Source: an uncultured Gammaproteobacteria bacterium (GTDB lineage: Bacteria > Patescibacteriota > Patescibacteriia > Magasanikbacterales > UBA922). From it: 64,000 nt of DNA. Below the pieces are notes generated by a model. That model ran no database searches, was not told the DNA's origin, and worked only from the letters and a program-made list of their open reading frames with translations. Shown one piece after another: positions 23,327 through 63,242 of this stretch (its first letter is position 1; the number at the start of each line of letters is the position of its first letter). Position numbers and translations under genes: made by a program. The stretch is taken from the NCBI GenBank assembly GCA_964345045.1, contig CAYFPM010000002.1, positions 140,330 to 204,329 of the forward strand, given 5' to 3'.

Positions 23327-23394
23327 CACTATTGGGCACTATCTTTATCAAACTTTGGTAACGATTGTGCCCAATAGCGGATTAGGCAACCGCA
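23327..23394 (+). promoter_or_regulatory. conserved leader element A (dyad TTATCAAACTTTGGTAA plus gtgcccaa hairpin)
   Basis: About 62 of 66 nt are identical to the leader at 24836-24893. It lies between the promoter and the ATG. The dyad is at 23345-23361. An inverted repeat attgggcac/gtgcccaat flanks it. Confidence 0.45.
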
Positions 23395-23411
23395 ATTTTT
23401 AAGGAGACAGG

Positions 23412-23801
23412 ATGCAAGCTTGTTTGATTTGTGGGGCGAATACCCCCACCAGCGACGACTTCGAGAGAAACAACGACGACGACTTCGCACGTTTGCAAGT
23501 GTTCAACGGGAATGAACATCGATTCGTCGTGATCTGTGGTGGTTGCTGCGGGGCTCCGGAACCTGTCCTGCTGGGGGTGAACTTGACTGGCCCCGTGTCT
23601 ACAACCGGTTTCAAGATCAAAATCCCCGGGCAAATCCCCAGTCACACCAACATTGCATGGACGCTCGAAGACATCTTGCGCCGCATGATCCAAGGAGCCA
23701 GGGTCCCCGAGCTGACCGATGCGCACATCGCGAAGTTGCTCGAGGCCTTCGGGATCGCCCCCTCCCCCACCCAGCCCCATACTCTCCGTTGGCTGGCGTA
23801 A
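23412..23801 (+). CDS. small Zn-ribbon protein A (129 aa), GC-rich foreign-like gene
   Basis: Motifs CLIC...CGGCC. RBS AAGGAG 6 nt upstream of the ATG. GC-rich codon third positions. Paralog of the ORF at 24910. Confidence 0.5.
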   Translation: MQACLICGANTPTSDDFERNNDDDFARLQVFNGNEHRFVVICGGCCGAPEPVLLGVNLTGPVSTTGFKIKIPGQIPSHTNIAWTLEDILRRMIQGARVPELTDAHIAKLLEAFGIAPSPTQPHTLRWLA

Positions 23802-23919
23802 AGTAGCGGCCTGCTACAGCGGTAGCCCATATACGCACCAGAGTGCGGGCGTACCAAAGGTACCCTGCGCTCGCCCCTATCTCAATTCTTTTTAAAATTA
23901 AAAGTAATTGAAATAAACA

Positions 23920-23948
23920 AAATCCAACACTACGTTGGATTTTGTTTT
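23920..23948 (+). terminator. intrinsic terminator
   Basis: Hairpin atccaac-actac-gttggat followed by TTTGTTTT. Confidence 0.7.
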
Positions 23949-23979
23949 GCAAAAATTTTTGAACCAAAACTAAATACAC

Positions 23980-24008
23980 TTGACAACCCTGCCAGAAAAT
24001 GATAAACC
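23980..24008 (+). promoter_or_regulatory. putative promoter (TTGACA, weak -10)
   Basis: TTGACA at 23980-23985. Candidate -10 elements are GATAAA or TAAACC. Confidence 0.3.
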
Positions 24009-24039
24009 AAAACCAAGTTCACTCTGTAGGAGGAGTACT

Positions 24040-24600
24040 ATGAATAACTTGGAACTGGCCGACTTCGGCATCTCCGGGACCCCCGGCTTTGCCCAGATCG
24101 CCTTCCTCACAACACCCACCCCTACCCAGAACCTTCATGGCATGCTTCGAGCCTTTTTGGCACCAGAGGACGGACTCTGCGACAATCCCCGAGACCTTCA
24201 AGCCAAGATGCTTCGGCTCTCTCGAGACCTCGGCAGACACACCCTGATGGATGAGTGTACTCAAAATTGCTGGGGCAAGCTCTATTACGATAGACGTGTG
24301 AAAGAGCGCAACTTCAGACTATTGATGATTGTCTTCCCGGATCCACTGGTTGCCCTAGGGGTGGCCTTGGACGCCGCCAGCGAGGATCGCGGAGGACTAG
24401 GCAGAATGATAGTGCCCGACGAGGATGTCCGGGCGCAAACCACTGGACTCGATCGTAACAACTACAATTGGTCCAGACCCGAACGCACTGTCCGCCATCG
24501 AAAAGACGGTGCCACCTTCGTTTACCCAGGTGGCAAAAGGCTTCGAATCGACTGGCCCGAACGGCCACCGATGCGTACCCGCTGGCTCAGATCTTTGTAG
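24040..24600 (+). CDS. hypothetical protein (186 aa), GC-rich island gene
   Basis: AGGAGG is 7 nt upstream of the ATG. Translation MNNLELADFGISGTPGF... . No family recognised. Confidence 0.45.
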   Translation: MNNLELADFGISGTPGFAQIAFLTTPTPTQNLHGMLRAFLAPEDGLCDNPRDLQAKMLRLSRDLGRHTLMDECTQNCWGKLYYDRRVKERNFRLLMIVFPDPLVALGVALDAASEDRGGLGRMIVPDEDVRAQTTGLDRNNYNWSRPERTVRHRKDGATFVYPGGKRLRIDWPERPPMRTRWLRSL

Positions 24601-24689
24601 GTAGCCACCGCGCTACCAACCCTAGCGACGAGTTACCCCCTCGTCCTCCCATTCCAATTCTTTTTAGCTTTAGAAATAATTGGACTGTA

Positions 24690-24723
24690 CAAAAACCGAC
24701 TGTGTAAGTCGGTTTTTGTTTTG
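24690..24723 (+). terminator. intrinsic terminator
   Basis: Hairpin aaaccgact-gtgta-agtcggttt followed by TTGTTTTG. Confidence 0.7.
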
Positions 24724-24755
24724 TAAAAATAGTTCTACTAACTTTGGCAAAACAC

Positions 24756-24784
24756 TTGACAAAAACCAAACAATTCTATAACCT
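24756..24784 (+). promoter_or_regulatory. sigma70-like promoter (TTGACA ... TATAAC)
   Basis: TTGACA at 24756-24761. TATAAC at 24777-24782 (15-nt spacer) or TAACCT (17-nt spacer). Confidence 0.45.
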
Positions 24785-24835
24785 AAGTCGTTGTTCTTTG
24801 TAGGAGAAATGCTCAGCATTTATTTCGCCGTTTGA

Positions 24836-24893
24836 CACTGTCTTTATCAAGCTTTGGTAAAGATTGTGCCCAACAGCGGACTTGGCACCCGCA
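24836..24893 (+). promoter_or_regulatory. conserved leader element B (dyad TTATCAAGCTTTGGTAA plus gtgcc/ggcac hairpin)
   Basis: Paralogous to leader A. The dyad is at 24844-24860. A hairpin GTGCC-N13-GGCAC follows. Confidence 0.45.
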
Positions 24894-24909
24894 TCGACCC
24901 GAGGTAATC

Positions 24910-25242
24910 GTGAAAACTTGCATCGTCTGTAATACCCAAACCGTGAAAACCAGTGGCAGTGGATGTGCAGATCCAAGGCTGGAAATCTACAACGGAGGAA
25001 CCGAAGTGTCTCGGTGCATCTGCCCCAAGTGCTGCCAGGCTCGCGAGCCCATCGTGCTCACGGTCTCAAGCTCTGGAGAAGTCGCCCAGCAGCGCATCGG
25101 CAGTGAGACCAACACCGTAAACCGCCTGCCGCTCGCTCAGGTTCTCGCCGCTCTCCAACAAGCAGAGCACATCCACCTCACCGGCAATGAGGTCGCCCAG
25201 ATCACCCGTCACTTCAACGCCCCTCTAGCAGCTGCCAGCTAG
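24910..25242 (+). CDS. small Zn-ribbon protein B (110 aa), paralog of A
   Basis: GTG start after GAGGT. Motifs CIVC...CICPKCC. A shared C-terminal pattern (LT..E.A.I...F) with protein A. Confidence 0.45.
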   Translation: MKTCIVCNTQTVKTSGSGCADPRLEIYNGGTEVSRCICPKCCQAREPIVLTVSSSGEVAQQRIGSETNTVNRLPLAQVLAALQQAEHIHLTGNEVAQITRHFNAPLAAAS

Positions 25243-25352
25243 ATGAGCAACGAACAGAGCGGTGGATACAGCCATACAACTTGGCTCACTCCACCGCTCG
25301 ATCCCAAAAAAGTTATAAATTAAAAAACCGGCTTAGACCGATTTTTTTGTTT

Positions 25353-26160: not shown

Positions 26161-26273
26161 AGTGGAAGAAGTAAGTTTTAAATTATAAGAAATAAGATTT
26201 GACTATTATATAACATTAAGAAAAGCAAGCCAAAGCCATAACCTTGACTTTTACTTACTTTTGATATAGGTTT

Positions 26274-26714
26274 ATGAACGTGAACGGAGATACCGCCCGC
26301 CGGTTTGTGTGGGCAATCAACCATTCTTGCATGATTCACATGCATTTTTTCGGAGGGGAAGAATATCTTTCGCTGACGAAGTCGCCAGGAGGTATGACTT
26401 ACACAGCCAAACTCGACGACGGCAAGCCCCTCCTGACCATCGAAGGTCACTGGGATGACACCAAAAATGGAGAACACGACTTGAGTGGAGTGTACAAAGC
26501 CAACCTCACTAGCGAAAGGAGCGGCACCCGATTTGTAACATTGTGGGGGTGTACTAACTACACTTTCGTGAATAGTTACCCAGCAAGACTGGAAGGACAC
26601 CCCTTAAAGCGAGGGAAAACTATGACCGCATGGGATTACCTGGCTAGATTTGGCTACCCCCTCGACGTATGCCCCAAAAAAGCCCGTCGAGACAATTCAA
26701 AAACAGCTTTGTAG
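26274..26714 (+). CDS. hypothetical protein (146 aa), GC-rich gene with a leaderless start
   Basis: TTGACT ... TATAGG lies immediately upstream of the ATG. GC-rich codon usage. A terminator follows. Confidence 0.45.
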   Translation: MNVNGDTARRFVWAINHSCMIHMHFFGGEEYLSLTKSPGGMTYTAKLDDGKPLLTIEGHWDDTKNGEHDLSGVYKANLTSERSGTRFVTLWGCTNYTFVNSYPARLEGHPLKRGKTMTAWDYLARFGYPLDVCPKKARRDNSKTAL

Positions 26715-37347: not shown

Positions 37348-40300
37348 CTACCAACCAACAGATGCCAAGGCATCGTCAAGTCCAAAAAATGAAGTTAACA
37401 AATACATTATTTTGGATTGAGGTGCTTCTAATTTTGTACTTTGAATCTTTACACCATCAAAAGGAATTGGTTCGAATGAATCTCTTGGTGGAGGAGGCTG
37501 TGTTCCAAAATTTTGATCTTGTGGAGCTGGCATAGGTTGCCCATCAAACTGAGGAGGCGCAAAATTATTATTGTCTTCTATAGGAGGAGGAAAACCTTCG
37601 TCATAGTTACCGGGCGGCCCAACTTGTCCCGGTTCAAAATACCCCCCATCCGGTTCACCCGTACGCATACCACCGTCTTGCGGTGGACGTATAGGTTCGG
37701 TAGGGTATGGCATTTGTCCATCTGGACCGCCGTCTATAAACTTAAACTGTTCATCTCTATAATCTGGTTCAAAGTAAGGTTTTTCTCCTTCAAAAGGTTG
37801 AAAGTGGTCACCAGATTCACCTGGAATAAAAGGCTTATCAAACTCAGGAAAATCTTCTCTTGGAGCAAAGTCTGGCTTGTAATCAAAATCTGGTTTTTGA
37901 TCTAACTCTGGACGATACCTATGATCGATTGGTTCACCAGGACGAAAATCTTCTTTGAACTCTTCACCAAAAGGTTCTTTGTCAAAGTATCTGTCGTCTG
38001 GGCGGAAATCAGGTCTATCAAATTCCGGAATTTGTGGTTTGTCGAACTGTTCGATAACTTGTCTTTCTTGTAATAATTCTTGATCTTTTTTCTCGGCTTC
38101 TTCTTTTATTCTAAGTTTTTCTTCTTCTGTTTCCGCGCCATGTAATTTTTGTTCTAATAAAAATTGTTCTCTTCTACGTTTGGCTTCGATATCTTTGATA
38201 TTTTTTTCAATTTCTTCTGGAGTTAGTTGTGGTCTCTTTTCTCTTTCCACACGGTCAAAAGGTTGACCATCTGGCCCAAATTGCTCTTCACGGAATTCGC
38301 CTGGAAAACCTTGCCCCCTAGGACCTTCTGGTCCAAACTCCGGCATCCCTTCTGGGACAAAGAAATCCCTTCTAAATAACTCTTCCTGCATTCTTTGTTT
38401 TTCTACAATTAAGTTTTCAAAGAATCTTGACTCTTCTTCACGACATTTTTCGTCACAAAATGGATTAAACTTAATTCTTTCTTCGAAACTTCTCTTTTCC
38501 AAATTTAGTGAACGTTCGTTTAACAATCTTTGTTTTTCATCTTTTTCTTGAGCAATTCTTTCTACTTCGGCAAAGTCCCCTCTGGCTTTGGCCTCGTTCA
38601 TAAGTCTATCGCTCTCAATTCTTAGACTTTCTCTTTCTTCATCAAGAGCTTTCCATTCTCCTTCTAGAGCCGGGTCAGGACCTTGTTGCAAAGCTCTTTC
38701 GTTTATAAAACGAGTTTTGTCTTGAAAGATTTGACCAAAATTTGTTTCGCGGCGTTCAAATTCTTTGGCCAAATCCGGCGGACCTTGTTGAAATTTTCTT
38801 TGAAAATTTTCAAATTGACTAGGGTCTTCAATGTTTTTCAAATGTTCGGTAATACCTTCGGTATGTTTGTCGATTACTTTGTCAAAGATAAATTCAAATC
38901 CTGGTGGAGGGCCAAACTCTGGACCAAATCCCGGATCAAACTCTCCCGGAGGACCAAATCCTTCTGGTCCAAATTCTGGAGGAAATGGAGGGAAACCTTC
39001 TTCGCCAAATGGAGGAGGACCAAACTCTGAGCCAAATCCTTCTGGTGGGGCAAAAAATTGTTCTGGATTATCTTTGAAATCTTCTTGTAATTGTTTAAAA
39101 ATTTCAATGTCTTGTGGGTTGCTAGAAATTACTTTTTCAAAAAATTTGTCACCTTCGGTACGAGCGCGTTCTGCAAATTTACTTTTGGCTTCGCGTTCCA
39201 TTTGTTCGATAAATTTGGCTTTTTCCGGATCAGCGCGAACTTCTGCTTCTAGCTCTTGCAAAAGTCTAAAGGTGGTAGGATCTGGATTCTCAGCCATTTT
39301 TTGAGATAATTTTCTAAAACGTTCTGCTTGATCTTGGGATTCGGTGTCTACAAAAACATTTTTAAATTTCTCAATAGAGGCTTCGTGTTCTTTTTCAAAT
39401 TCTTCTTTTATTTCTTCATCATCAAACTCTACTCTTTGTCTGATTTCTTCCAAAACACGAAGTTTTACCACTTTTTCGGTTCCTTCGGCTTCTTGAAAAC
39501 GCTTAAACATTCTTTCACGCATTCTTTTGCTTACAGCTTCGTCACTAAAATTTTCATTAAATTCTTCTACCTTTTGTTTAAATTTTTGTGCAGAAATATC
39601 TTTGGCAGCCTCTATTCTTTCGGCAATTTCTGCTGGCAAATTTTCTTGATAATTTTTCATGCGATCAAATATTTCGATGTGCAAAGCATCGTCTCCACGC
39701 ATGTCTCTGGTATAATTTTCAAAACGAGTAGAAATTTCTTCTTTTGGCAACTCGTTTACTTTGTTTACAAAACGTTCAATAGCTTTGTCTTCTACTTTTT
39801 CCAAAGCTTCGCGAGCTTCCTCTGGCACATGTTCTTGGACACGTTTGATAACTTCCAAATTTCTTAATTCTTTAAAATGACTTCCTGCTTGACGATCCAA
39901 AACTCTGTCAAAATGAGTAGCTAATCTTTCTGGGTTAGTTTCGATTTGGCTTACAGCTTCACCTACACTGCTGGCAGAAACTTCTTTGGTTTGTTGAATT
40001 TTTTCTACTACTTTGGCAGCAATTTGTTCCGAAGCGGTTTCGGTTACTTTTTTTTCTATTTGTTCCAACACTTTTTGTTGTTTGATTTGCTTGTCCAAAA
40101 TTTCTTCAACCAACAAAGCTCCTTTTTCTTCTTCTATATCTTTTGAGCTTTCTTTTACTTTTTCCAAAGCGTTTTCAAAATTAGTAATAGCTCTCAAGGC
40201 TCTGTTGGCAGCAGCATCATTATTTGGTTCTTCTTCAATTACTTCTTTGGCACGCAACAAATCTTCGCTGGCAAATTTTACTTCTAGCTCCACCTTTTTG

Positions 40301-40659
40301 GCTTTGTCAAAAGTAATTACCTTTTGGATAGGACGAAAAAAACGCTTTAATCCATAAAAGCGTGTATTTGCCTCCAAATCTTGATCTGTTACAGTTTCGT
40401 CCAAGTTTACTTCTTGTGATGATAGAGACGGCTGATCACTCACTCCTTCGTTTGTGCCCTCGATTGACTGATCAATAGTCTCTACTACTGCTGTTTCTGC
40501 AGTTGGAGGCGGTGCCTCTTGGGCAGAAGCCGGTCTAGCGAACAAAAAAACAGCTACCAAAATTGTGATACCTGCCAATAGATAATAGTATACCCAAGAA
40601 AAGTGATGGGCTTCGTTTGTATTCAAAGAATTTGCAAACGCATTTTGTTTGTTTTTCAT
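37348..40659 (-). CDS. giant (about 1100 aa) secreted or anchored repetitive protein: coiled-coil E/K-rich N-terminal part and Pro/Gly/Phe-rich FGPEGF-type repeats
   Basis: Signal-anchor sequence. Repeats PEFGPEG, FGPPP and DFRPD. Extreme acidic and proline-rich composition. Confidence 0.55.
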   Translation of the reverse strand: MKNKQNAFANSLNTNEAHHFSWVYYYLLAGITILVAVFLFARPASAQEAPPPTAETAVVETIDQSIEGTNEGVSDQPSLSSQEVNLDETVTDQDLEANTRFYGLKRFFRPIQKVITFDKAKKVELEVKFASEDLLRAKEVIEEEPNNDAAANRALRAITNFENALEKVKESSKDIEEEKGALLVEEILDKQIKQQKVLEQIEKKVTETASEQIAAKVVEKIQQTKEVSASSVGEAVSQIETNPERLATHFDRVLDRQAGSHFKELRNLEVIKRVQEHVPEEAREALEKVEDKAIERFVNKVNELPKEEISTRFENYTRDMRGDDALHIEIFDRMKNYQENLPAEIAERIEAAKDISAQKFKQKVEEFNENFSDEAVSKRMRERMFKRFQEAEGTEKVVKLRVLEEIRQRVEFDDEEIKEEFEKEHEASIEKFKNVFVDTESQDQAERFRKLSQKMAENPDPTTFRLLQELEAEVRADPEKAKFIEQMEREAKSKFAERARTEGDKFFEKVISSNPQDIEIFKQLQEDFKDNPEQFFAPPEGFGSEFGPPPFGEEGFPPFPPEFGPEGFGPPGEFDPGFGPEFGPPPGFEFIFDKVIDKHTEGITEHLKNIEDPSQFENFQRKFQQGPPDLAKEFERRETNFGQIFQDKTRFINERALQQGPDPALEGEWKALDEERESLRIESDRLMNEAKARGDFAEVERIAQEKDEKQRLLNERSLNLEKRSFEERIKFNPFCDEKCREEESRFFENLIVEKQRMQEELFRRDFFVPEGMPEFGPEGPRGQGFPGEFREEQFGPDGQPFDRVEREKRPQLTPEEIEKNIKDIEAKRRREQFLLEQKLHGAETEEEKLRIKEEAEKKDQELLQERQVIEQFDKPQIPEFDRPDFRPDDRYFDKEPFGEEFKEDFRPGEPIDHRYRPELDQKPDFDYKPDFAPREDFPEFDKPFIPGESGDHFQPFEGEKPYFEPDYRDEQFKFIDGGPDGQMPYPTEPIRPPQDGGMRTGEPDGGYFEPGQVGPPGNYDEGFPPPIEDNNNFAPPQFDGQPMPAPQDQNFGTQPPPPRDSFEPIPFDGVKIQSTKLEAPQSKIMYLLTSFFGLDDALASVGW

Positions 40660-41068
40660 ATTTTTGTTTTTATTTTTGTTTTTGATTAATTATTTTTTGT
40701 TTTTACTCCTCTCTTACAACGAGATTTTGTAATTTTTTTATTTTTTGTTTTAATCTGCTGAGCTTATCTGTATTTTTCTTTTGTAATAAAGATAAATCCG
40801 AGAAAATTAATTGTTTATAGATCCATTATAGCACAAAAAAACGGTTTTGTCAACCCCTTTTTGTATAGACTATTGTATACTTTTTACTTTTTTCCATTCT
40901 TTTTTTCAAAAACAATAAATTTCTTATCTTTAGAAAAAAATTTACTTAAATCTATCAACTACACCAAAAAAACAGCTCAACGCTGTTTTGTTTTATATGA
41001 ATTTTGTCGACCGAACTCCCCACAAGTTCGGTCTAGGTCCCCTTTGGCAAAGTCAGCCGACGATCAAC

Positions 41069-41371
41069 TCAAGTTGGTTGATCGTAGCGACACGAGAAGG
41101 TGGAAACCCCAACACTCTCGAATGAGATGTCCTGCCCTTTCTCGAAAATCAAGGACTCGAACACGCAAGCTCTTGTCCAGACCTTCTTATCTTTCTCTTC
41201 TCCCGTAGTGAGCTTGCCATTTTCGACGGTGATCTGCACCCGCCTCTCGGCCGGTCCCAGGTTATGTACACCAGGCCTTACAGTTACCGAAGCAAACCTT
41301 CTTCCGGCTTGATCGAGATAAGAGGTGATGAAAACACCCTCATCTTCGTTTGTAAAATGTTCGATAGTCAT
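41069..41371 (-). CDS. small hypothetical protein (101 aa), tandem paralog 1, GC-rich
   Basis: Starts 5 nt after the stop of paralog 2. Shared motif ITVENGKLTTGE...FEKGQDISF. GC-rich codons. Confidence 0.45.
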   Translation of the reverse strand: MTIEHFTNEDEGVFITSYLDQAGRRFASVTVRPGVHNLGPAERRVQITVENGKLTTGEEKDKKVWTRACVFESLIFEKGQDISFESVGVSTFSCRYDQPT

Positions 41372-41375
41372 TCTT

Positions 41376-41681
41376 CTACCCCCCAATCTCACCGTAGCGA
41401 ATCACAAAGCTAGCGTCTACCGGAGCGGTGAATTTGATCTTGTCTCCTTCTTGAAACACGAGGGTATCGCTGAGCTGGTGATAGCTCTTCTCTCCAACAA
41501 CCAGTTGTCCATTGGTGACCGTGAACCGCATCGTACACCGAGCCAACCCCAGGTCGTAGGGAGCCTCTCTCGTATCGGCCATGCCGATTGAGAGAACTTT
41601 TTTCGATCCCGTGTTATCGTAGCGGTTCATGATCATCACCTGACCACTATCGAACCGGGTAACGTCTTTGAATCGAGCCAT
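41376..41681 (-). CDS. small hypothetical protein (101 aa), tandem paralog 2, GC-rich
   Basis: Purine-rich SD GGAAAGAGGGAAAAGG. Upstream TTGACA lies inside the palindrome aaccattgacaaaatggtt. Motif FTVTNGQLVVGE...FQEGDKIKF. Confidence 0.45.
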   Translation of the reverse strand: MARFKDVTRFDSGQVMIMNRYDNTGSKKVLSIGMADTREAPYDLGLARCTMRFTVTNGQLVVGEKSYHQLSDTLVFQEGDKIKFTAPVDASFVIRYGEIGG

Positions 41682-41851
41682 CCTTTTCCCTCTTTCCTCT
41701 CACCAAAAGGTGGTGAATACTCAAATTTATCCCATAATTTAACCATTTTGTCAATGGTTTTTTGAATTTGAAGAAAATTAACAAATTTATAAAATTCCTT
41801 ATATGGTTTATAATTCAACTGTATAATCTCCTTTTAAATTAGTTACTTACT

Positions 41852-42667
41852 ATGCTCAATTACCGTTATATACTTGTTATATTAATATTTACTTTTTCTT
41901 CCATTGCCGCTTACCCTAGCTCCGCAACCGCCTTTTCTTGCACAGGAGTATCCACCCAAGTTGGAATTGTTAAAAGAATTTTAAAAGATAATAATGATCT
42001 AAAAAAAATAGAATTGTCCAAAGTTCATTTTTTTTCACTACCCGAAGAGATATACGAAAAAAACATCCCACTAGACTTTTTTGAAAAAATTGCTCAAACT
42101 TATCCAAATAGTGAAGACCTTACAGCTTCCAAAAACAAATTCCATTATATAGATAATATCCCTGAAGAATATTTAAAACGTCTTGATATTGATATAGGTG
42201 AAATGATTATGGTTAGCCCTATGGCGGGCCATGGTTGCTTGTATAATTTTTGGGCAGTGTTTACTCCCTCTGGAAAATTAAAAATTGCTGAGATTTCTAC
42301 TACTTTTGATAAGTCTATTCAATTTAGAAACACCCTAATTGAAATGTCGGCTGGAGAAGATATATCTTGTGACGATAACCTATGTTCGGTTAAAACGAAT
42401 TTTTTGATAGACAGCAAGGAAAAGTTTTCTCTTGTCGAAGGAGAATCAAAAAAATTAAAATCTCTAAAAAATGATATTAATAAATTAAGTTTAATAACTG
42501 CCAATTTGCGTCCGGAAGATAAAAAGGATGTAAGAGGTCTTGCTTCATTTTTATATTCAGAAGGTCTAACCTTTTCCATAACTCCAGCAACTGAGTTAGA
42601 CAATCCTTTTAAAAAACCTTGGTATTCAAAAATTTGGCAATGGTTGGTGGGATTAATTAATTTTTGA
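41852..42667 (+). CDS. hypothetical secreted protein (271 aa)
   Basis: Signal peptide MLNYRYILVILIFTFSSIAAYPSSATA. AT-rich. Confidence 0.5.
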   Translation: MLNYRYILVILIFTFSSIAAYPSSATAFSCTGVSTQVGIVKRILKDNNDLKKIELSKVHFFSLPEEIYEKNIPLDFFEKIAQTYPNSEDLTASKNKFHYIDNIPEEYLKRLDIDIGEMIMVSPMAGHGCLYNFWAVFTPSGKLKIAEISTTFDKSIQFRNTLIEMSAGEDISCDDNLCSVKTNFLIDSKEKFSLVEGESKKLKSLKNDINKLSLITANLRPEDKKDVRGLASFLYSEGLTFSITPATELDNPFKKPWYSKIWQWLVGLINF

Positions 42668-42722
42668 TAAAAATCCTCCCAAAATGAAGAAGAGCAAGTA
42701 TGTACCATGACAAACTTGCTCA

Positions 42723-42935
42723 CTAGAGGGCACCTCTTGTATCTGGATTGCAAATCCTGTGGCAATGGCGACACTGCAATTGGCCACGAGGATTCCTCCC
42801 CACCTGCCCCTTGCATACAGGGCAAACCATCCATCTATTCTCTCTTCTCAATTTCTCTATTACCCGAAAAAGGCACCCCAATCTGTGCCCCTGTTTTTTC
42901 CCGCATAGTTTACACGAAACCTCCAAAGGCACCAC
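42723..42935 (-). CDS. small Zn-ribbon protein (70 aa, four CxxC pairs)
   Basis: GTG start after AGGAG. Motifs CKLCG, CPVCKG and CRHCHRIC. Local GC content is elevated. Antisense ORFs overlap, so strand assignment is tentative. Confidence 0.35.
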   Translation of the reverse strand: MVPLEVSCKLCGKKQGHRLGCLFRVIEKLRRENRWMVCPVCKGQVGRNPRGQLQCRHCHRICNPDTRGAL

Positions 42936-43017
42936 AGACTCCTAACTCCTATATTTAAAAAAATCTCCTTATTATAAGAAAACATTTATAGGGAGGTAGG
43001 TCAAGGAAAAATTAAAA

Positions 43018-43053
43018 AACATATACTTGAAAGTATATGTTTTATTTTTATCT
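43018..43053. terminator. bidirectional intrinsic terminator
   Basis: Hairpin acatatac-ttgaaa-gtatatgt flanked by A and T runs. Confidence 0.6.
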
Positions 43054-43070
43054 TTAAATAATTTTAAATT

Positions 43071-46047
43071 TTATTCCTCCCCCCTCACCTCATAGCTTAG
43101 CTCCAGCCCCTTACTAGTCATAAGGAAACCCTTCACGACAATCCTCTGCGCATGAATATCATTGTGACATTCTTTGCAAATAGGCAGTAAATTAAATTTG
43201 TGATTTTTGTGAATGTGACCAATGTTGCCATCTTCGTCTGCCATCTCCTGCGGCGAAATATGGTGAGTGTCGTCCACATTTTTTTGGCAGATAGCACAAG
43301 TCGACAAGTATAGCTCTTTGCTATACTTGCTTTTATTTTTCTGAGTCAATAATTCTAGATCGGTGTAGTCGGCAGCTAGAGATTTCCGTACATCTTTGGC
43401 ATAGCGTAAGAATTGCTCGTCCATGTGTAGCGACTGGGCGAACTCTAGGCCATAGATAGTACTACCATTCCCAGGCTGGAGGGTGCGATCAAAGATTAAC
43501 TTGTCTTCGTCTTTGTCATAATGCACACTCATGTGAACACTAGCCACTTCGTGCAATTCTTGAAGTTCGCGAATACTACAAATCTGATGCAAGTGCGTGG
43601 TAAAAAGAAACATAGCTTTTTGCTCTACCAATCTTTTTATGGTGGCAGTAACAATAGCAATGGCAGACAAAGTTTCGGTGCCATGGCTAATCTCGTCGCC
43701 AAGAACAAGACTTTTTGGAGTAGAACGATTAAAAATATTTTTTAGCTCCATCATTTCTACAGCAAAAGAAGATAATCCTTTGGCAAAATTATCTCGCGAA
43801 ACTATGCGGGTAAAGAGTTCGTGGCAAAGACTAAAACGCATGGCTGTTGCAGGAACATACATACCTGCCTGAGCCAGGATTACTGCAATGCCCAAACTTT
43901 TCATTAGAGAAGATTTTCCACTAGAGTTAATTCCATAAAGCAGCATCCCTCGCACATCACCTACAGTTTCTGTAGCGATTACTGATTCTTTATTCTGTTT
44001 GGAAAACAAATTCTCCGAACCCAGTACAATATCGTTTGGAATATAAATACCACCTTCTTCGCGAGCTTCTACTAGCGGATGACGTAGGTCTTTTATAGAA
44101 ATATATTGTTCTTCTTCTGTTGTTTCTACTATTTCTGGGCGAACCAGCCGATAAGCAGTAGCATTTTTGCCGGTCGATACAGCCACGTCTATTCTAGCCA
44201 ATACTTTGCTACATTCGGATACAAAGTCCGAAAAATTCTTGTCCATGTGTTCCAGAGCTTCGGCAAAGAGAGACTTTACCAACTGCACAATTCGGGCTTC
44301 AACATCTGTTAGCTCTTTCGAAAATTCTTGTATTACTTCGGCCGAAATTTTGACATTGTTAGTTTGCTGTTTGTATTGAAATTCGGACAAAGCATAGACA
44401 GTGCCATCGATAGGCAAAAAAGTTTCTTTCAAAGATTGCTCGATCAAACTAAAACGAGCTTTGGTCATAATCAAATGATGTCGTTCTTTGTCTAGCTTGC
44501 GGAGAGTTACATATTCTGGTTCGTGTTTGCCTGTAGCGTTTTCTAATAACTCTACAAATTTCATGCGAATAAGCGAAAGTTTTTCTTCCAAAATATTTTT
44601 TTCTTTCATTAATTCTGTCAATTCTTTTTGATATTCCGGAGCAAATATATTGGTGCTAATAGTTTGGGTAGTAACTTTGGCAGTTTCATCCAAATCAAAA
44701 GTTTCTTCGATATATCTCTTGGTGTCGGCCAAACTATTTTGTTGCGAAATAAATTCTGGCAAAAGTTCGGCGGCACTTTCTTTTACAAGTTCTAAGATAG
44801 TTTGTGCTCCTAGCATTGAATCGTACAAAAAATTAATCTCAAACGGATGCAAACGGCCAAGCCGGATACGACGAACAATTCTTTCTAGATCATAAATTTT
44901 TCGCAAAGCTTGTTCAATATTACTTTGCTTGGGCAAGAGAGCCTCTACCAGATCATAACGAGTTTCTATTTCTTTTTTATCGGTAATTGGATTGGTAAGA
45001 CGGTCTCTAAAAAGACGTTTACCAATAGCCGTAGAAGTATGATCTAGATAAGATAGCAAAGTCCGCTCACGTGGATCCGGGCTAACAATGCTAAGCTGCT
45101 CGAGTGGATTATTACCCAAATACAAATATTTTTCCGGTTCAATAATTGTAGGCTTTTTGAGATTTTCAATCACGCGCGCGTCATGCTCTACGATAAATTC
45201 GATAAGGTGTGCCAAAGCTTCGGAAGTAAGGGGTTGGCGTTCTAGATCGAGAAATTCTATGGGTGAAAGAAATGATTTTACTACATAAGCTCGTTTAAAA
45301 AGTTCATTTTGATAATTTACAGACAACCTTTTTTCTCTTTCGTGAATATTTTGAAAATCTGCCAGTTCCAAATATTTCAAAATTTCTTCTTTGTTTATTT
45401 CTTTGCTACCGGGAGTAAGGATTAACTCGGCCAAATTGTGCGAGCGGACTAGTCCAAAAAGCTGATCAAGAGCAGCAGATTTATCTTCTTTTGTACTATG
45501 CCCCTCAAAAAGATAAGTCTTGCCAGTAGTCACGTCTAGTGCAGCATAACCCACCGAGTAAAGTCCTTGGTGTTCTTCTACCATTATAGAAGCAATAAAA
45601 TTGTCGGCATGGTCTAGGCAATACTCCATGTTTACACCCGGAGAAATAATTTGGTCTAGATAGCGAGTAATATTTGGAGGAGTTCCTTTTTGACGAATCA
45701 CTACAATAGTATATTTTTTTTCAGAAATAAGTCTGGCAATGTAACGATCAAAAGTAGCCGTAGGAAAACCGGCCATGAGTGGATTGGTAATCGAATTTTC
45801 TTTGATACTTTTGTTACGGCGAGTTAACTGCAAATTTAGCAGATCGGCAATTTCTTTTACTTTACCAAGGGTCACCTCTTCGTTATCTACTCCATAAACT
45901 TCAAAAAAAGAGCCTAACTCTATTAGTACAATTGTGTTTTCTCCATAGCGTTCGGAGTAAATCTTGTGTAAATCAAAGTATCCCTCAAGGATATTTTTAT
46001 CCGGGTTACCTAGGTAGTAATTGATATCGATAGGTTCTCTTTGCATA
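43071..46047 (-). CDS. mutS: MutS-family DNA mismatch recognition ATPase with a C-terminal HNH endonuclease domain (MutS7-like architecture)
   Basis: MutS domains (Walker A GINSSGKSSLMKSLG, DE..HGT). The C-terminus CAICQKNVDDTHHISPQEMADEDGNIGHIHKNHKFNLLPICKECHNDIH carries an HNH motif. Start chosen at MQREPIDINYY. Confidence 0.7.
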
Positions 46048-46156
46048 TTTTTGTGCCATATATGGTAGCATATTGAGAGCTTTGAACATATAGCTGGCGA
46101 CATTAACTTAATCTCTGCTACAATAAGCATCTAAATAAATTAATCTAAAAATTAAT

Positions 46157-51485: not shown

Positions 51486-51640
51486 CAAAAAATATCAAGA
51501 GTGAGGATAGCGACTTGGCGCCACAACCCTCTACCAACCGAGCTTAACTACGGTGGTTCCAACCCCAATGGGAAAGATAGGCCTTTTAAACAAAAGGAAA
51601 ATAAGGAGTTTCTTATCTTATCCGGGTAAGAAATTTTTGT
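51486..51640 (+). ncRNA. candidate SAM-I (S-box) riboswitch with an intrinsic terminator expression platform
   Basis: P1 UAUC/GAUA. J1/2 AAGAG. Segments resembling the S-box consensus (AUCAAGAG, ACCAACC, GGUGnUUCC, GAAAGAUA). A terminator hairpin tttctta-N11-taagaaa plus a U-run lies at 51607-51640, about 75 nt before the ATG. Confidence 0.45.
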
Positions 51641-51716: not shown

Positions 51717-52649
51717 ATGAAAGACGGAAAAGACACTTATTTCTTCAGCGATTGCTTTCAACACGGAAGCTCCCAATTTGATCCGAATGCCGCCTCCCGA
51801 ACGATGGCTCGCTTTCGCAAGATTAGTAGACAAATCAGGCCAGAAGTATCCCCACCTTTCCTCGACAGACAAGGAGCTTGGCGAGGGACTGACCTAGGTT
51901 TTCTGATGGCCGAGTTGGCTCATCAACACACAGGGCTGGTCATTGGTGGAAATGCTGCCAAGCGAATCCCTGGGAAAAAAAACGGAACTTCTTTTTCTTT
52001 GGCAACGGTAGGTGGCAACCTAATCCTTTCTACTGTGGGCAAAAACACCTACCCAGTAATGGCTCGTCTTCTTGGGCTAGACTCAATCGAAGTTGCCCTC
52101 CTCGATATCGGAAACGCTGCCCAGAAGATGAATGTCCAAAACAAAGAAAGGATGACAACCACTCAATACCGTTCGCTCTGGTTTCAAACAGCGGCTTTGG
52201 CTCAGCTGGCTCACCTCGAAACACTCCCCACTCACCCAAATTCGATCTTCGGCGGGGAAGTAAAAACAATCAAGCCTGACAGCGGAATGCGAATTGTCTA
52301 TATCGATAGCTTCGGAAACTTGAAGCTCTCTGGTAGAAGAAAAGACTTGCCCAAGGGAGAAAGAATCAAGGTCTCTTTCCCAGAAAAAGCACATCGAAAC
52401 CTCTCGCCACTTGGAGCGAACAACACAGCACATATCACAGGTGGAAGGGAAAACGAATTTCAAGTTTCAGTCGGATCAAGTATCCCTACCGAAGCAGGCG
52501 GTCTACTAGAACTCCAAATCCTCGGTGGAACTAGGATAGGAGTCGATACGGCTGCAGACAAAGTTCTAGGGCACTTCCTGGGCGTCCCGGACGTTCGCTG
52601 CCATCACGACCTCATAGGTATCAAAGTGAGGCTCAGCAAAGCCTCCTAA
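51717..52649 (+). CDS. DUF62-like protein (SAM hydroxide adenosyltransferase / SalL-FlA family), GC-rich gene
   Basis: N-terminus FFSDCFQHGSS. Central YRSLWFQTAALAQLA. C-terminal domain IVYIDSFGNLKLS resembles the D.FGN motif of DUF62 enzymes. Foreign-like codon usage. Confidence 0.4.
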   Translation: MKDGKDTYFFSDCFQHGSSQFDPNAASRTMARFRKISRQIRPEVSPPFLDRQGAWRGTDLGFLMAELAHQHTGLVIGGNAAKRIPGKKNGTSFSLATVGGNLILSTVGKNTYPVMARLLGLDSIEVALLDIGNAAQKMNVQNKERMTTTQYRSLWFQTAALAQLAHLETLPTHPNSIFGGEVKTIKPDSGMRIVYIDSFGNLKLSGRRKDLPKGERIKVSFPEKAHRNLSPLGANNTAHITGGRENEFQVSVGSSIPTEAGGLLELQILGGTRIGVDTAADKVLGHFLGVPDVRCHHDLIGIKVRLSKAS

Positions 52650-62549: not shown

Positions 62550-63242
62550 TTATGAGACCTGGCACTCGTCGTAGAGGCCATGCCACCAGCTGCCCATGGC
62601 AGATAGGACGGCTTGGGCTCCGCAGACAAAGTCGGCTTGGCACACTCCGTGGCTTTGCAAAAGAGCTTGCTTCAACCCTTCCTGATGCCCGGGCTCCCAG
62701 ACGTTGATGTGCTTATCCAAGAATTTTCGCAGGCCATTAGCCAGTGGTTTGTTATGGAAATCCTCAGAAAGCCTCTCCAAGAGGACCTTTACGACCAACA
62801 GCTCGGGACGAGCCGTAGCCTCCAGAGCATAGGCTGCCCCCAAGGAAAGTGACGAATTAGAACCGTTAATCGCATCTTCGACACTACCAAGAAAGCTACT
62901 TGTAGCCTTCGAGGAAATGGTATGGCGAACGGACAACCCCAAGCCTACCTGGAGTGTCCCTTCCAGCATCTCGTAGTGGGTAATACCCACACTGTCCGAG
63001 CCGAGTTCTTCGCCGATATTGCGGCTGAGCTCTAGCTCTACAGTCTTCAAACCACACCGACGCGCTGCATCCCTAGATCTCGTCAGAAACCGGACAATCT
63101 CCTTGGGAAAAAGAGTGTATTGAGCAACAACATACTCCAGGATCGCACGGTTGGTGTGGCGCGTGGTGAAGGGGTTCCCATCGACCTTTAGCTCAGCAGT
63201 GCTTGCCACGAGTGCGTCGATGGTCTGGATTGAATTTTTCAT
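62550..63242 (-). CDS. hypothetical protein (230 aa), GC-rich, possibly a heme-oxygenase-like or iron-containing redox enzyme fold
   Basis: Higher GC than its neighbours. Helical sequence with a NIGEELG....H.EM segment reminiscent of ExxH metal sites. Weak assignment. Confidence 0.3.
   Translation of the reverse strand: MKNSIQTIDALVASTAELKVDGNPFTTRHTNRAILEYVVAQYTLFPKEIVRFLTRSRDAARRCGLKTVELELSRNIGEELGSDSVGITHYEMLEGTLQVGLGLSVRHTISSKATSSFLGSVEDAINGSNSSLSLGAAYALEATARPELLVVKVLLERLSEDFHNKPLANGLRKFLDKHINVWEPGHQEGLKQALLQSHGVCQADFVCGAQAVLSAMGSWWHGLYDECQVS

What the first reader, a model, noticed from the sequence alone, without database searches (positions are those of the whole stretch)
41000..41760. 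Second GC-rich islet: tandem 101-aa paralogs with a purine-rich SD and a palindrome-embedded -35
Two back-to-back minus-strand genes (41376-41681, then 41069-41371, 5 nt apart) encode diverged paralogs with a shared G(K/Q)L..GE...F.EGD.I.F core. Their codon usage is GC-rich and foreign-like. Upstream are an exceptional SD (GGAAAGAGGGAAAAGG) and a TTGACA inside the perfect palindrome AACCATTGACAAAATGGTT. This arrangement would suit a repressor overlapping the -35. No family is recognisable. Tandem small beta-rich paralogs in an acquired islet could be a toxin/immunity or effector pair.
Basis: seen in the sequence. Interest (0 to 1): 0.6.

Follow-up and report, generated by a model that had tools for sequence, protein, structure and literature searches.

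The report
Tandem diverged PpnP-like cupin genes
The two small back-to-back genes are real, but they are not a family-less toxin/immunity pair: they are sister copies of a very diverged PpnP/DUF1255 cupin (small beta-barrel, nucleoside-phosphorylase family) on a sharply bounded GC-rich, probably imported 710-bp piece of a Patescibacteria-like genome, and both have lost the polar residues that are invariant in that family.

Summary
The sequence observation holds. Two intact minus-strand ORFs (41376-41681, 101 aa; 41069-41371, 100 aa) lie 4 nt apart. They are 26% identical (E 4e-8) and sit in a 710-bp block of 51% GC with flanks of 24-28% GC. "No family is recognisable" is wrong. Direct Pfam and NCBIfam scans fail, but an exhaustive profile search links the pair to short proteins that Pfam assigns to PF06865 (Ppnp/DUF1255). 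Profile-profile comparison gives 97.8% probability (E 1e-12). An AlphaFold model built on that alignment (pLDDT 88.6) matches solved PpnP/DUF1255 cupins best. A and B are sister paralogs nested in a divergent short-loop PpnP subfamily. Both have replaced the family's invariant Ser, Glu and two Tyr with other, mostly hydrophobic residues, so canonical nucleoside phosphorylase activity is doubtful. Toxin/immunity, defence, phage and RNA readings found no support. The "palindrome" is a 7-bp inverted repeat with a 5-nt spacer, a class seen about once per 600 bp in this window, and no regulator gene is nearby. The Shine-Dalgarno tract is unusual: 0 of 26 native genes have one. No close relatives or synteny exist in public data. 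This is an ordinary-to-modest finding: a new variant of a known fold family, function untested.

The parts
41006..41715 (.). GC-rich module: 710 bp at 50.8% GC, against flanks of 24% and 28% GC. It contains the leader hairpin, the SD tract, both ORFs and the 3' hairpin, but not the promoter or the terminator.
   Evidence: Two-change-point likelihood segmentation; GC profiles.
41741..41759 (-). Inverted repeat AACCATT-GACAA-AATGGTT (7-bp arms, 5-nt spacer) that overlaps the -35 hexamer.
   Evidence: It is not statistically unusual: 106 such repeats occur in the window.
41749..41754 (-). -35 hexamer TTGACA, a perfect consensus match.
   Evidence: Read from the sequence.
41726..41734 (-). Putative extended -10: TGg + GATAAA, lying 17 nt after the -35. 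The -10 matches 4 of 6 positions. This is inferred; the consensus scan did not call it because the last base is A.
   Evidence: Sequence; scan.
41700..41716 (-). Small leader hairpin TCACCA-CCTTT-TGGTGA just upstream of the SD tract. The leader folds no better than shuffled sequence.
   Evidence: Sequence; fold z-score 0.08.
41682..41701 (-). 20-nt purine tract GAGAGGAAAGAGGGAAAAGG. The SD core GAGGG (41688-41692) lies 6 nt before the ATG. This is the longest purine run in the window.
   Evidence: 0 of 26 native ORFs have an SD core.
41376..41681 (-). ORF A, 101 aa (stop at 41376-41378): a diverged PpnP/DUF1255-like cupin. Public gene calls start it at Met16 (86 aa), but homology to the family and the SD tract support Met1.
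41372..41375 (-). 4-nt intercistronic gap (AAGA) between the TAG of A and the ATG of B. Translational coupling is likely (inferred).
   Evidence: Sequence.
41069..41371 (-). ORF B, 100 aa (stop at 41069-41071): sister paralog of A and also a diverged PpnP/DUF1255-like cupin. It is not called in most public assemblies of this contig.
41009..41033 (-). 10-bp GC-rich hairpin GACCGAACUU-GUGGG-GAGUUCGGUC at the 3' edge of the GC-rich module. It has no U tract.
   Evidence: Fold of 40955-41075(-), z-score -2.65.
40962..40989 (-). Intrinsic terminator AAAACAGC-GUUGA-GCUGUUUU followed by a U run, in AT-rich native-like DNA.

Best explanation
This is a two-gene operon encoding sister paralogs of a highly diverged branch of the PpnP/DUF1255 (Pfam PF06865, E. 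coli YaiE) family of roughly 95-residue single-domain cupin beta-barrels. The genes lie on a sharply bounded 710-bp GC-rich module (41006-41715). That module was most likely imported by horizontal transfer into an AT-rich, Shine-Dalgarno-independent Patescibacteria (Magasanikbacteria-like) genome. Likely workings, all inferred: transcription starts from TTGACA-17-(TG)GATAAA in native AT-rich DNA. A roughly 37-nt leader carries a donor-type SD. ORF A and ORF B are translated in a coupled fashion across the 4-nt gap. Transcription ends at the intrinsic terminator at 40969-40989. Each product folds as a cupin barrel and, like PpnP (dimeric, from memory of the 7EYJ-7EYP structure paper), probably pairs up, plausibly as an A-B heterodimer. 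Both copies have replaced the family's invariant polar residues with other, mostly hydrophobic ones: Ser to Ile/Ile, Glu to Met/Val, C-terminal Tyr to Phe/Phe, and N-terminal Tyr to Arg/Asn. I therefore expect that they no longer carry out canonical nucleoside phosphorolysis. More likely they bind a different, more hydrophobic small ligand, or are otherwise neofunctionalised or non-catalytic. Shown: the ORFs, their paralogy, family homology, fold compatibility, loss of invariant residues and foreign composition. Inferred: operon expression, dimerisation, loss of activity and horizontal origin.
Against: Neither ORF reaches any score against the Pfam PF06865 model or NCBIfam. Against canonical PpnP alone the link is weak: hhalign probability is 67% for the pair, 44% for A alone and 9% for B alone. 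Homology therefore rests on an intermediate subfamily. The confident AF2 model was built on a PpnP-family alignment, so its PpnP-like fold is not independent evidence. With only the two sequences the model was useless (pLDDT 37). Which residues of PpnP are catalytic is not established here, because I could not retrieve the structural paper. 'Loss of activity' is therefore an inference from invariance. There are no relatives, no sequence variants (all public copies are 100% identical) and no expression data. Purifying selection, expression and dimerisation are untested, and the genes could be neutral passengers.
Confidence: 0.6

Rival explanations
1. The pair are functional pyrimidine/purine nucleoside phosphorylases (true PpnP isozymes). 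They would serve nucleoside salvage in a CPR bacterium that cannot make nucleotides de novo, using a differently composed active site.
For: They are homologous to the PpnP family with the same size and fold. From general knowledge, salvage is important for Patescibacteria. Multiple PpnP paralogs in one locus exist elsewhere (L084).
Against: The polar positions that are invariant across 59 family members are substituted in both copies: Ser 100%, Glu 100%, Tyr 100%, Tyr 98%. There is no Pfam or NCBIfam hit. No nucleoside or ribose-phosphate metabolism gene is adjacent.
Confidence: 0.15
2. The module is recently acquired, selectively neutral or decaying cargo. The ORFs are intact and homologous to cupins but are not used by the host.
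For: Strongly foreign GC and GC3 with sharp boundaries. The genes are found in only one organism, and no synteny exists in 80 related MutS loci. Family-invariant residues are lost.
Against: Both ORFs are full-length relative to the family with no frameshifts or stops. A perfect -35, an SD, a 4-nt coupling gap and a terminator are all in place. A and B share only about 27% identity yet keep the Gly and hydrophobic pattern of the fold and model confidently. This implies long purifying selection, at least in the donor lineage.
Confidence: 0.15
3. One reading: a toxin/immunity (or effector/immunity) pair, controlled by a repressor binding the inverted repeat over the -35.
For: The genes are small, tandem and tightly spaced in an acquired islet. 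An inverted repeat overlaps the -35.
Against: The two proteins are sister paralogs of one cupin fold rather than two different proteins. Nothing matches in PADLOC, PHROGs, Pfam or NCBIfam. No secretion signal is visible on reading the translations, and no mobile-element or secretion genes are adjacent. The inverted repeat is of a class seen 106 times in the window, and no regulator gene is nearby.
Confidence: 0.03
4. The GC-rich islet is not protein-coding. Instead it is a structured RNA, the opposite-strand ORFs are the real genes, or the protein is a TRAP-like RNA-binding protein.
For: GC-rich islands in AT-rich genomes are often RNAs. The A+B profile gives a weak N-terminal match to TRAP/MtrB (E 0.013 on an engineered tandem TRAP, 0.37-0.5 on natural chains). 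Antisense ORFs of 70 and 88 aa exist.
Against: There is no Rfam match at the gathering or E<=1 thresholds. Protein homology is significant in the sense frame. The antisense ORFs have no family. The per-domain TRAP E-values are 21-28, which is noise.
Confidence: 0.02

Closest known systems
PpnP / YaiE pyrimidine/purine nucleoside phosphorylase (Pfam PF06865, formerly DUF1255/UPF0345; structures 7EYJ-7EYP, 2OYZ, 3HQX, 3EO6)
   Different: No score against the Pfam model. The family-invariant Ser, Glu, Tyr and Tyr are replaced in both copies. The 'KLPG..W' loop of canonical PpnP is missing. A has a 4-5 residue insertion (ADTRE) and B a 6-residue insertion (VWTRAC). The genes are present as a tandem pair. 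Activity is untested.
Divergent short-loop PpnP subfamily from groundwater and other metagenomes
   Same: These are the closest relatives: 28-38% identity, HMM E 4e-6 against 1.84 billion sequences. A and B nest inside this group in the NJ tree. One contig (L084) also carries two paralogs.
   Different: These proteins keep all the family invariants (KVQS, E, SYxC) and pass the Pfam threshold. They are single genes, next to trpA/trpB or a TrmB regulator, not tandem pairs.
EutQ and other small RmlC-like cupins
   Different: Lower structural scores than DUF1255 structures. No sequence-level relationship was detected. The typical cupin His/Glu metal motif is absent from A and B when their sequences are read.

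Membership tests
Pfam PF06865 Ppnp (DUF1255/YaiE) | Scores at or above the Pfam gathering threshold (25 bits) against the family HMM | tested here: not met
   hmmscan at E<=1 lists no PF06865 hit for A or B. NCBIfam also gives nothing.
Pfam PF06865 Ppnp (DUF1255/YaiE) | Statistically significant homology to family members (profile or transitive) | tested here: met
   The A+B profile hits P0004/5/6 at E 4e-6 to 2e-4 in 1.84 billion sequences, and these are PF06865 at E 6e-14 to 6e-9. hhalign gives 97.8%, E 1.1e-12. Against canonical members only it gives 67%.
Pfam PF06865 Ppnp (DUF1255/YaiE) | Single-domain cupin beta-barrel of about 90-100 residues | tested here: met
   AF2 gives pLDDT 88.6 and an all-beta model. 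The top PDB matches are PpnP/DUF1255. Caveat: the model used a PpnP-family alignment, and only ORF A was modelled.
Pfam PF06865 Ppnp (DUF1255/YaiE) | Family-invariant residues: N-terminal Tyr, G-K-V-Q-S Ser, A-T-x-G-V, Glu before V-T-S-G, C-terminal S-Y-x-C | tested here: not met
   Tyr (98%) is Arg in A and Asn in B. Ser (100%) is Ile in both. Glu (100%) is Met in A and Val in B. Tyr (100%) is Phe in both. Cys (97%) is Ile in A and kept in B. Thr (95%) is Ser in A and Ala in B. Only G-x-V and the VT-x-G Gly are kept.
Pfam PF06865 Ppnp (DUF1255/YaiE) | Phosphorolysis of purine and pyrimidine nucleosides | not testable with these tools
   This needs an enzyme assay. E. coli ppnP is treated as a guanosine phosphorylase in PMC11186194.
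Pfam PF06865 Ppnp (DUF1255/YaiE) | Dimeric assembly | not testable with these tools
   No multimer prediction was available. That PpnP is a dimer is recalled from the 7EYJ-7EYP structure paper and was not verified here.
Toxin-antitoxin / toxin-immunity / defence pairs | At least one partner matches a known toxin, antitoxin, immunity or defence family | tested here: not met
   PADLOC gives 0 hits. PHROGs gives only E>0.1 noise. Pfam and NCBIfam give none.
Toxin-antitoxin / toxin-immunity / defence pairs | Two functionally distinct partners (a toxin and a different neutralising protein) | tested here: not met
   A and B are sister paralogs of the same fold.
TRAP (MtrB) RNA-binding attenuation protein | Significant sequence similarity to TRAP | tested here: not met
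   E is 0.37-0.5 on natural TRAP chains, and per-domain E is 21-28. The fold search gives cupins, not TRAP.
Structured non-coding RNA (Rfam families) | Match to a covariance model | tested here: not met
   There is no hit in 40700-43100 beyond two chance-level ones outside the ORFs, and none at gathering scores.

The most novel reading that the evidence does not exclude
The pair is a neofunctionalised 'pseudo-PpnP': a hetero-dimeric cupin that has exchanged the nucleoside-phosphorylase pocket for a hydrophobic one and acquired a new ligand or catalytic activity. It would be one of several recently imported GC-rich modules in an SD-independent Patescibacteria genome, another of which (23.4-25.3 kb) also carries a diverged paralog pair. 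That would give a view of ongoing gene import into a reduced symbiont.
Probability: 0.25. Interest if true: 0.45.

Novelty: new variant of a known kind. Interest (0 to 1): 0.25.

Why it matters
The main value is annotation clean-up. An apparent ORFan pair, truncated (ORF A) or missed (ORF B) by public gene calls, is placed in the PpnP/DUF1255 cupin superfamily. The toxin/immunity idea can be dropped. If the loss of the invariant polar residues reflects a new function, the pair would define a non-phosphorylase branch of a family whose only characterised activity is nucleoside phosphorolysis. It is also a clean example of a foreign module in a small Patescibacteria genome whose own genes lack Shine-Dalgarno sequences. 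The module has sharp GC boundaries, its own SD, and native promoter and terminator around it. This bears on how such reduced genomes take up and express foreign genes. None of this would surprise a specialist much.

Tried and rejected
- **Direct family scans of A and B.** Pfam, NCBIfam, PADLOC and PHROGs gave nothing.
- **Word-index protein searches.** Only self hits from one metagenome project came back.
- **AF2 with only the two paralogs as alignment.** pLDDT was 37, which is unusable.
- **PDB sequence search.** The single sequence gave no hit. The A+B profile gave only a chance-level TRAP/MtrB N-terminal match, which I rejected.
- **Rfam, at gathering and permissive thresholds.** Nothing lies in the islet.
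- **Leader RNA fold.** It is no better than shuffles (z 0.08), so there is no evidence for a riboswitch or attenuator.
- **Search for relatives at the DNA level.** GTDB genomes, JGI metagenomes and IMG/VR gave none.
- **Synteny via the neighbouring MutS gene.** 80 loci were fetched and none carries A, B or the other neighbours.
- **Ka/Ks.** Not possible, because all public copies are 100% identical in DNA and A and B are saturated relative to each other.
- **Operator idea.** The motif is unique in the window, and inverted repeats of that class are common.
- **Antisense ORFs.** They have no family.
- **Literature on PpnP active-site residues.** The structural paper is not in the searchable library.
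- **AFDB fold library.** It was unavailable.
- **Gene context of the nearest subfamily members.** Neighbours were trpA/trpB, TrmB and tRNA_bind. No consistent functional clue emerged.

Full report
**1. What is in the sequence**

On the minus strand there are two intact ORFs.
- ORF A is 41376-41681, 101 aa, with an ATG start.
- ORF B is 41069-41371, 100 aa, with an ATG start.
- They are separated by 4 nt (TAG-AAGA-ATG).

They are paralogs: BLASTP gives 26% identity over 88 residues, E 4e-8, and 27 columns are identical in the MAFFT alignment.

The window is 38% GC. ORF A is 52% GC with GC3 0.63, and ORF B is 49% GC with GC3 0.53. Native long ORFs have GC3 of 0.24-0.40.

A two-change-point likelihood fit puts the islet at 41006-41715, with 50.8% GC inside and 24% and 28% GC outside. 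The foreign-looking block therefore contains a small leader hairpin, the purine tract, both ORFs and a 10-bp GC-rich 3' hairpin (41009-41033). The promoter-like hexamers and the intrinsic terminator (40969-40989 plus U run) lie in AT-rich, native-looking DNA.

**2.

- **Shine-Dalgarno tract.** The purine tract GAGAGGAAAGAGGGAAAAGG (41682-41701) is real. It is the longest purine run in the window and places GAGGG 6 nt before the ATG. It is unusual for this genome: none of 26 native-composition long ORFs has GGAG, GAGG or AGGA at -20..-4. The host seems not to rely on Shine-Dalgarno pairing, and the SD most simply came in with the module.
- **-35 and inverted repeat.** TTGACA (41749-41754) is embedded in AACCATT-GACAA-AATGGTT (41741-41759). 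This is a 7-bp inverted repeat with a 5-nt spacer, not a perfect palindrome. It belongs to a class that occurs 106 times in the 64-kb window, and a second member of that class also contains a TTGACA. The motif has no second copy within three mismatches, and no DNA-binding regulator is encoded nearby.
- **-10.** The -10 is GATAAA, 17 nt downstream and preceded by TG. It is plausible, but too weak for the consensus scan.
- **Leader.** It folds no better than shuffled sequence (z 0.08).

So there is a plausible promoter and a genuinely odd SD, but no evidence for an operator.

**3. Are they genes, and of what family?**

Direct scans find nothing: Pfam and NCBIfam, PADLOC, PHROGs, and PDB by sequence. 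Word-indexed searches of 5.8 billion clusters find only the same sequences from one metagenome project.

An exhaustive hmmsearch with the two-sequence profile against 1.84 billion representatives gave five non-self hits.
- Three are 92-95-aa proteins (P0004, P0005, P0006; E 3.9e-6, 1.5e-4, 2.4e-4). Pfam assigns these to PF06865, Ppnp (pyrimidine/purine nucleoside phosphorylase, formerly DUF1255/YaiE), at E 6e-14 to 6e-9.
- Two are long repetitive proteins matched only over short stretches.

A profile of A, B and the three short proteins recovers 138 proteins, and every non-self hit among the 120 listed carries PF06865.

Profile-profile comparison of A+B with an independent 39-member alignment that excludes A and B gives probability 97.8%, E 1.1e-12, over 90 columns. 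Against canonical PpnP only, with the intermediate subfamily removed, it falls to 67% for the pair, 44% for A and 9% for B. The link is therefore transitive, through a divergent short-loop subfamily.

Pairwise tblastn supports it: P0008 vs B is 33% over 96 aa, and P0006 vs A is 38% over 76 aa.

F..G..I.F) is the signature of that subfamily.

**4. Fold**

With only A and B as alignment, AlphaFold gave pLDDT 37. With a 61-sequence family alignment, ORF A models at pLDDT 88.6 and pTM 0.79 as an all-beta barrel.
- Foldseek against the PDB puts seven PpnP/DUF1255 structures first (7eyl, 7eym, 7eyp, 2oyz, 7eyj, 3hqx; TM 0.71-0.80), followed by EutQ and other cupins.

Because the alignment was family-derived, this shows compatibility rather than independent proof.

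**5. How the pair differs from the family**

Across 59 family members in the alignment, the following are conserved. Both ORFs keep only the G-x-V and the VT-x-G glycine.

| Family position | Conservation | ORF A | ORF B |
|---|---|---|---|
| Ser of G-K-V-Q-S | 100% | Ile | Ile |
| Glu before V-T-S-G | 100% | Met | Val |
| Tyr of S-Y-x-C | 100% | Phe | Phe |
| N-terminal Tyr | 98% | Arg | Asn |
| Cys | 97% | Ile | Cys |
| Thr | 95% | Ser | Ala |

The hhalign alignment gives the same correspondences.

A and B share the derived states Ser to Ile, Phe to Leu and Tyr to Phe. They are sisters in a neighbour-joining tree (bootstrap 75/100), nested beside P0005 and P0008. The duplication therefore followed the loss of the polar invariants, and the two copies then diverged to about 27% identity while keeping the fold pattern.

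Invariant polar residues in an enzyme family usually line the active site. I therefore infer that the canonical phosphorylase chemistry is probably gone. I could not retrieve the PpnP structure paper to confirm which residues contact substrate.

**6. Context and origin**

The neighbours are:
- a 1103-aa DUF5667 protein (37348-40659, minus strand) with a perfect consensus promoter;
- a divergent 271-aa protein of unknown family, whose N-terminus reads as signal-like;
- a MutS with an HNH-like tail.

No mobile-element, secretion or nucleoside-metabolism genes are adjacent. The closest MutS relatives are Patescibacteria/Magasanikbacteria (51-57% identity). This, together with DUF5667, points to a Magasanikbacteria-like CPR host.

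None of the 80 related MutS loci carries A, B or the other neighbours. DNA-level scans of GTDB genomes, JGI metagenomes and IMG/VR find no relatives. All public copies are 100% identical, so Ka/Ks cannot be computed.

The nearest subfamily members sit in genomes of 37-60% GC, so a donor of about 50-55% GC is plausible. Their gene contexts give no consistent functional clue: tail-to-tail with trpA/trpB, or downstream of a TrmB regulator. One of those contigs also carries two PpnP paralogs two genes apart.

**7. Verdict**

The exceptions are the gap size, the "perfect palindrome", and the significance of that repeat.
- It is wrong that no family is recognisable.
- It is unsupported on toxin/immunity and on repressor control.

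The best explanation is a bicistronic, probably horizontally acquired pair of diverged PpnP/DUF1255-type cupins. They likely act as a dimer and have probably lost canonical nucleoside phosphorylase chemistry.
- Confidence that they are PpnP-superfamily cupins: about 0.9.
- Confidence in the whole statement, including loss of activity: about 0.6.

Novelty is a new variant of a known kind. Interest is low to modest.

Noticed in passing
window 23351-25351: A much stronger GC-rich islet (60-64% GC against 38% for the window). Two Cys-rich ORFs, 23412-23801(+) and 24832-25242(+), are diverged paralogs (28% identity, E 9e-9) with no Pfam family. This is a second case of a paralog pair in a foreign-looking islet.
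   Followed up: partly
window 42723-42935 (-), promoter about 42975-43005: An uncalled 70-aa ORF with four CxxC motifs (double zinc ribbon; weak zf-Di19 and Trm112p hits). It has a GTG start, an AGGAG SD and its own TTGACC...TATAAT promoter, and lies in a 46-50% GC patch between MutS and the 271-aa gene. It is absent from the public gene calls.
   Followed up: partly
whole window (26 native long ORFs): None of 26 native-composition ORFs has a GGAG/GAGG/AGGA core at -20..-4, so the host appears to initiate translation without Shine-Dalgarno pairing. Several GC-rich ORFs (41376-41681, 51717-52649, 23412-23801, 42723-42935) do carry one.
   Followed up: partly
window 43071-46130 (-): A 1019-aa MutS (domains I, II, III, V) with a C-terminal HNH/DUF968-like tail. 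The closest relatives are Patescibacteria/Magasanikbacteria (51-57%), followed by dozens of Campylobacterota such as Sulfurovum and Hydrogenimonas (46-49%). From memory, this distribution resembles the MutS7 subfamily.
   Followed up: partly
window 51487-51613 (+) and 51717-52649 (+): A SAM-I/IV riboswitch (45.6 bits against a gathering score of 41.1) lies directly upstream of a GC-rich (49%) 310-aa ORF. That ORF has only a weak SAM_HAT_C (SAM hydroxide adenosyltransferase C-terminal) hit.
   Followed up: no
window 62550-63242 (-): Another GC-rich gene (53% GC, GC3 0.61) encoding a DUF3865 / haem-oxygenase-like protein (E 8e-39). It is probably also acquired.
   Followed up: no
window 41376-41681 and 41069-41371; loci L001-L003: Public gene calls start ORF A at Met16 (86 aa) and omit ORF B on three of the assemblies. 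Only one 2.5-kb contig has the 101-aa and 100-aa calls. Homology to PpnP extends to residues 4-15 of ORF A, so the long form is the right one.
   Followed up: yes
L084 2485-2751 and 4572-4850; L085, L087-L092, L095: The divergent short-loop PpnP subfamily shows recurring contexts. Members lie tail-to-tail with trpA-trpB (P0004, P0009) or downstream of a TrmB-family regulator (P0006, P0013). One contig holds two PpnP paralogs two genes apart.
   Followed up: partly
window 37348-40659 (-), promoter 40825-40853: A 1103-aa DUF5667 protein with long Pro/Glu/Phe/Gly-rich low-complexity stretches. It is driven by a perfect TTGACA-17-TATAAT promoter with a TG extension (12/12 match).
   Followed up: no
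window 26178-26714: A 53% GC patch with overlapping ORFs on both strands (26178-26600 minus strand, 26274-26714 plus strand), neither with a Pfam family. Which strand codes, if either, is unresolved.
   Followed up: no
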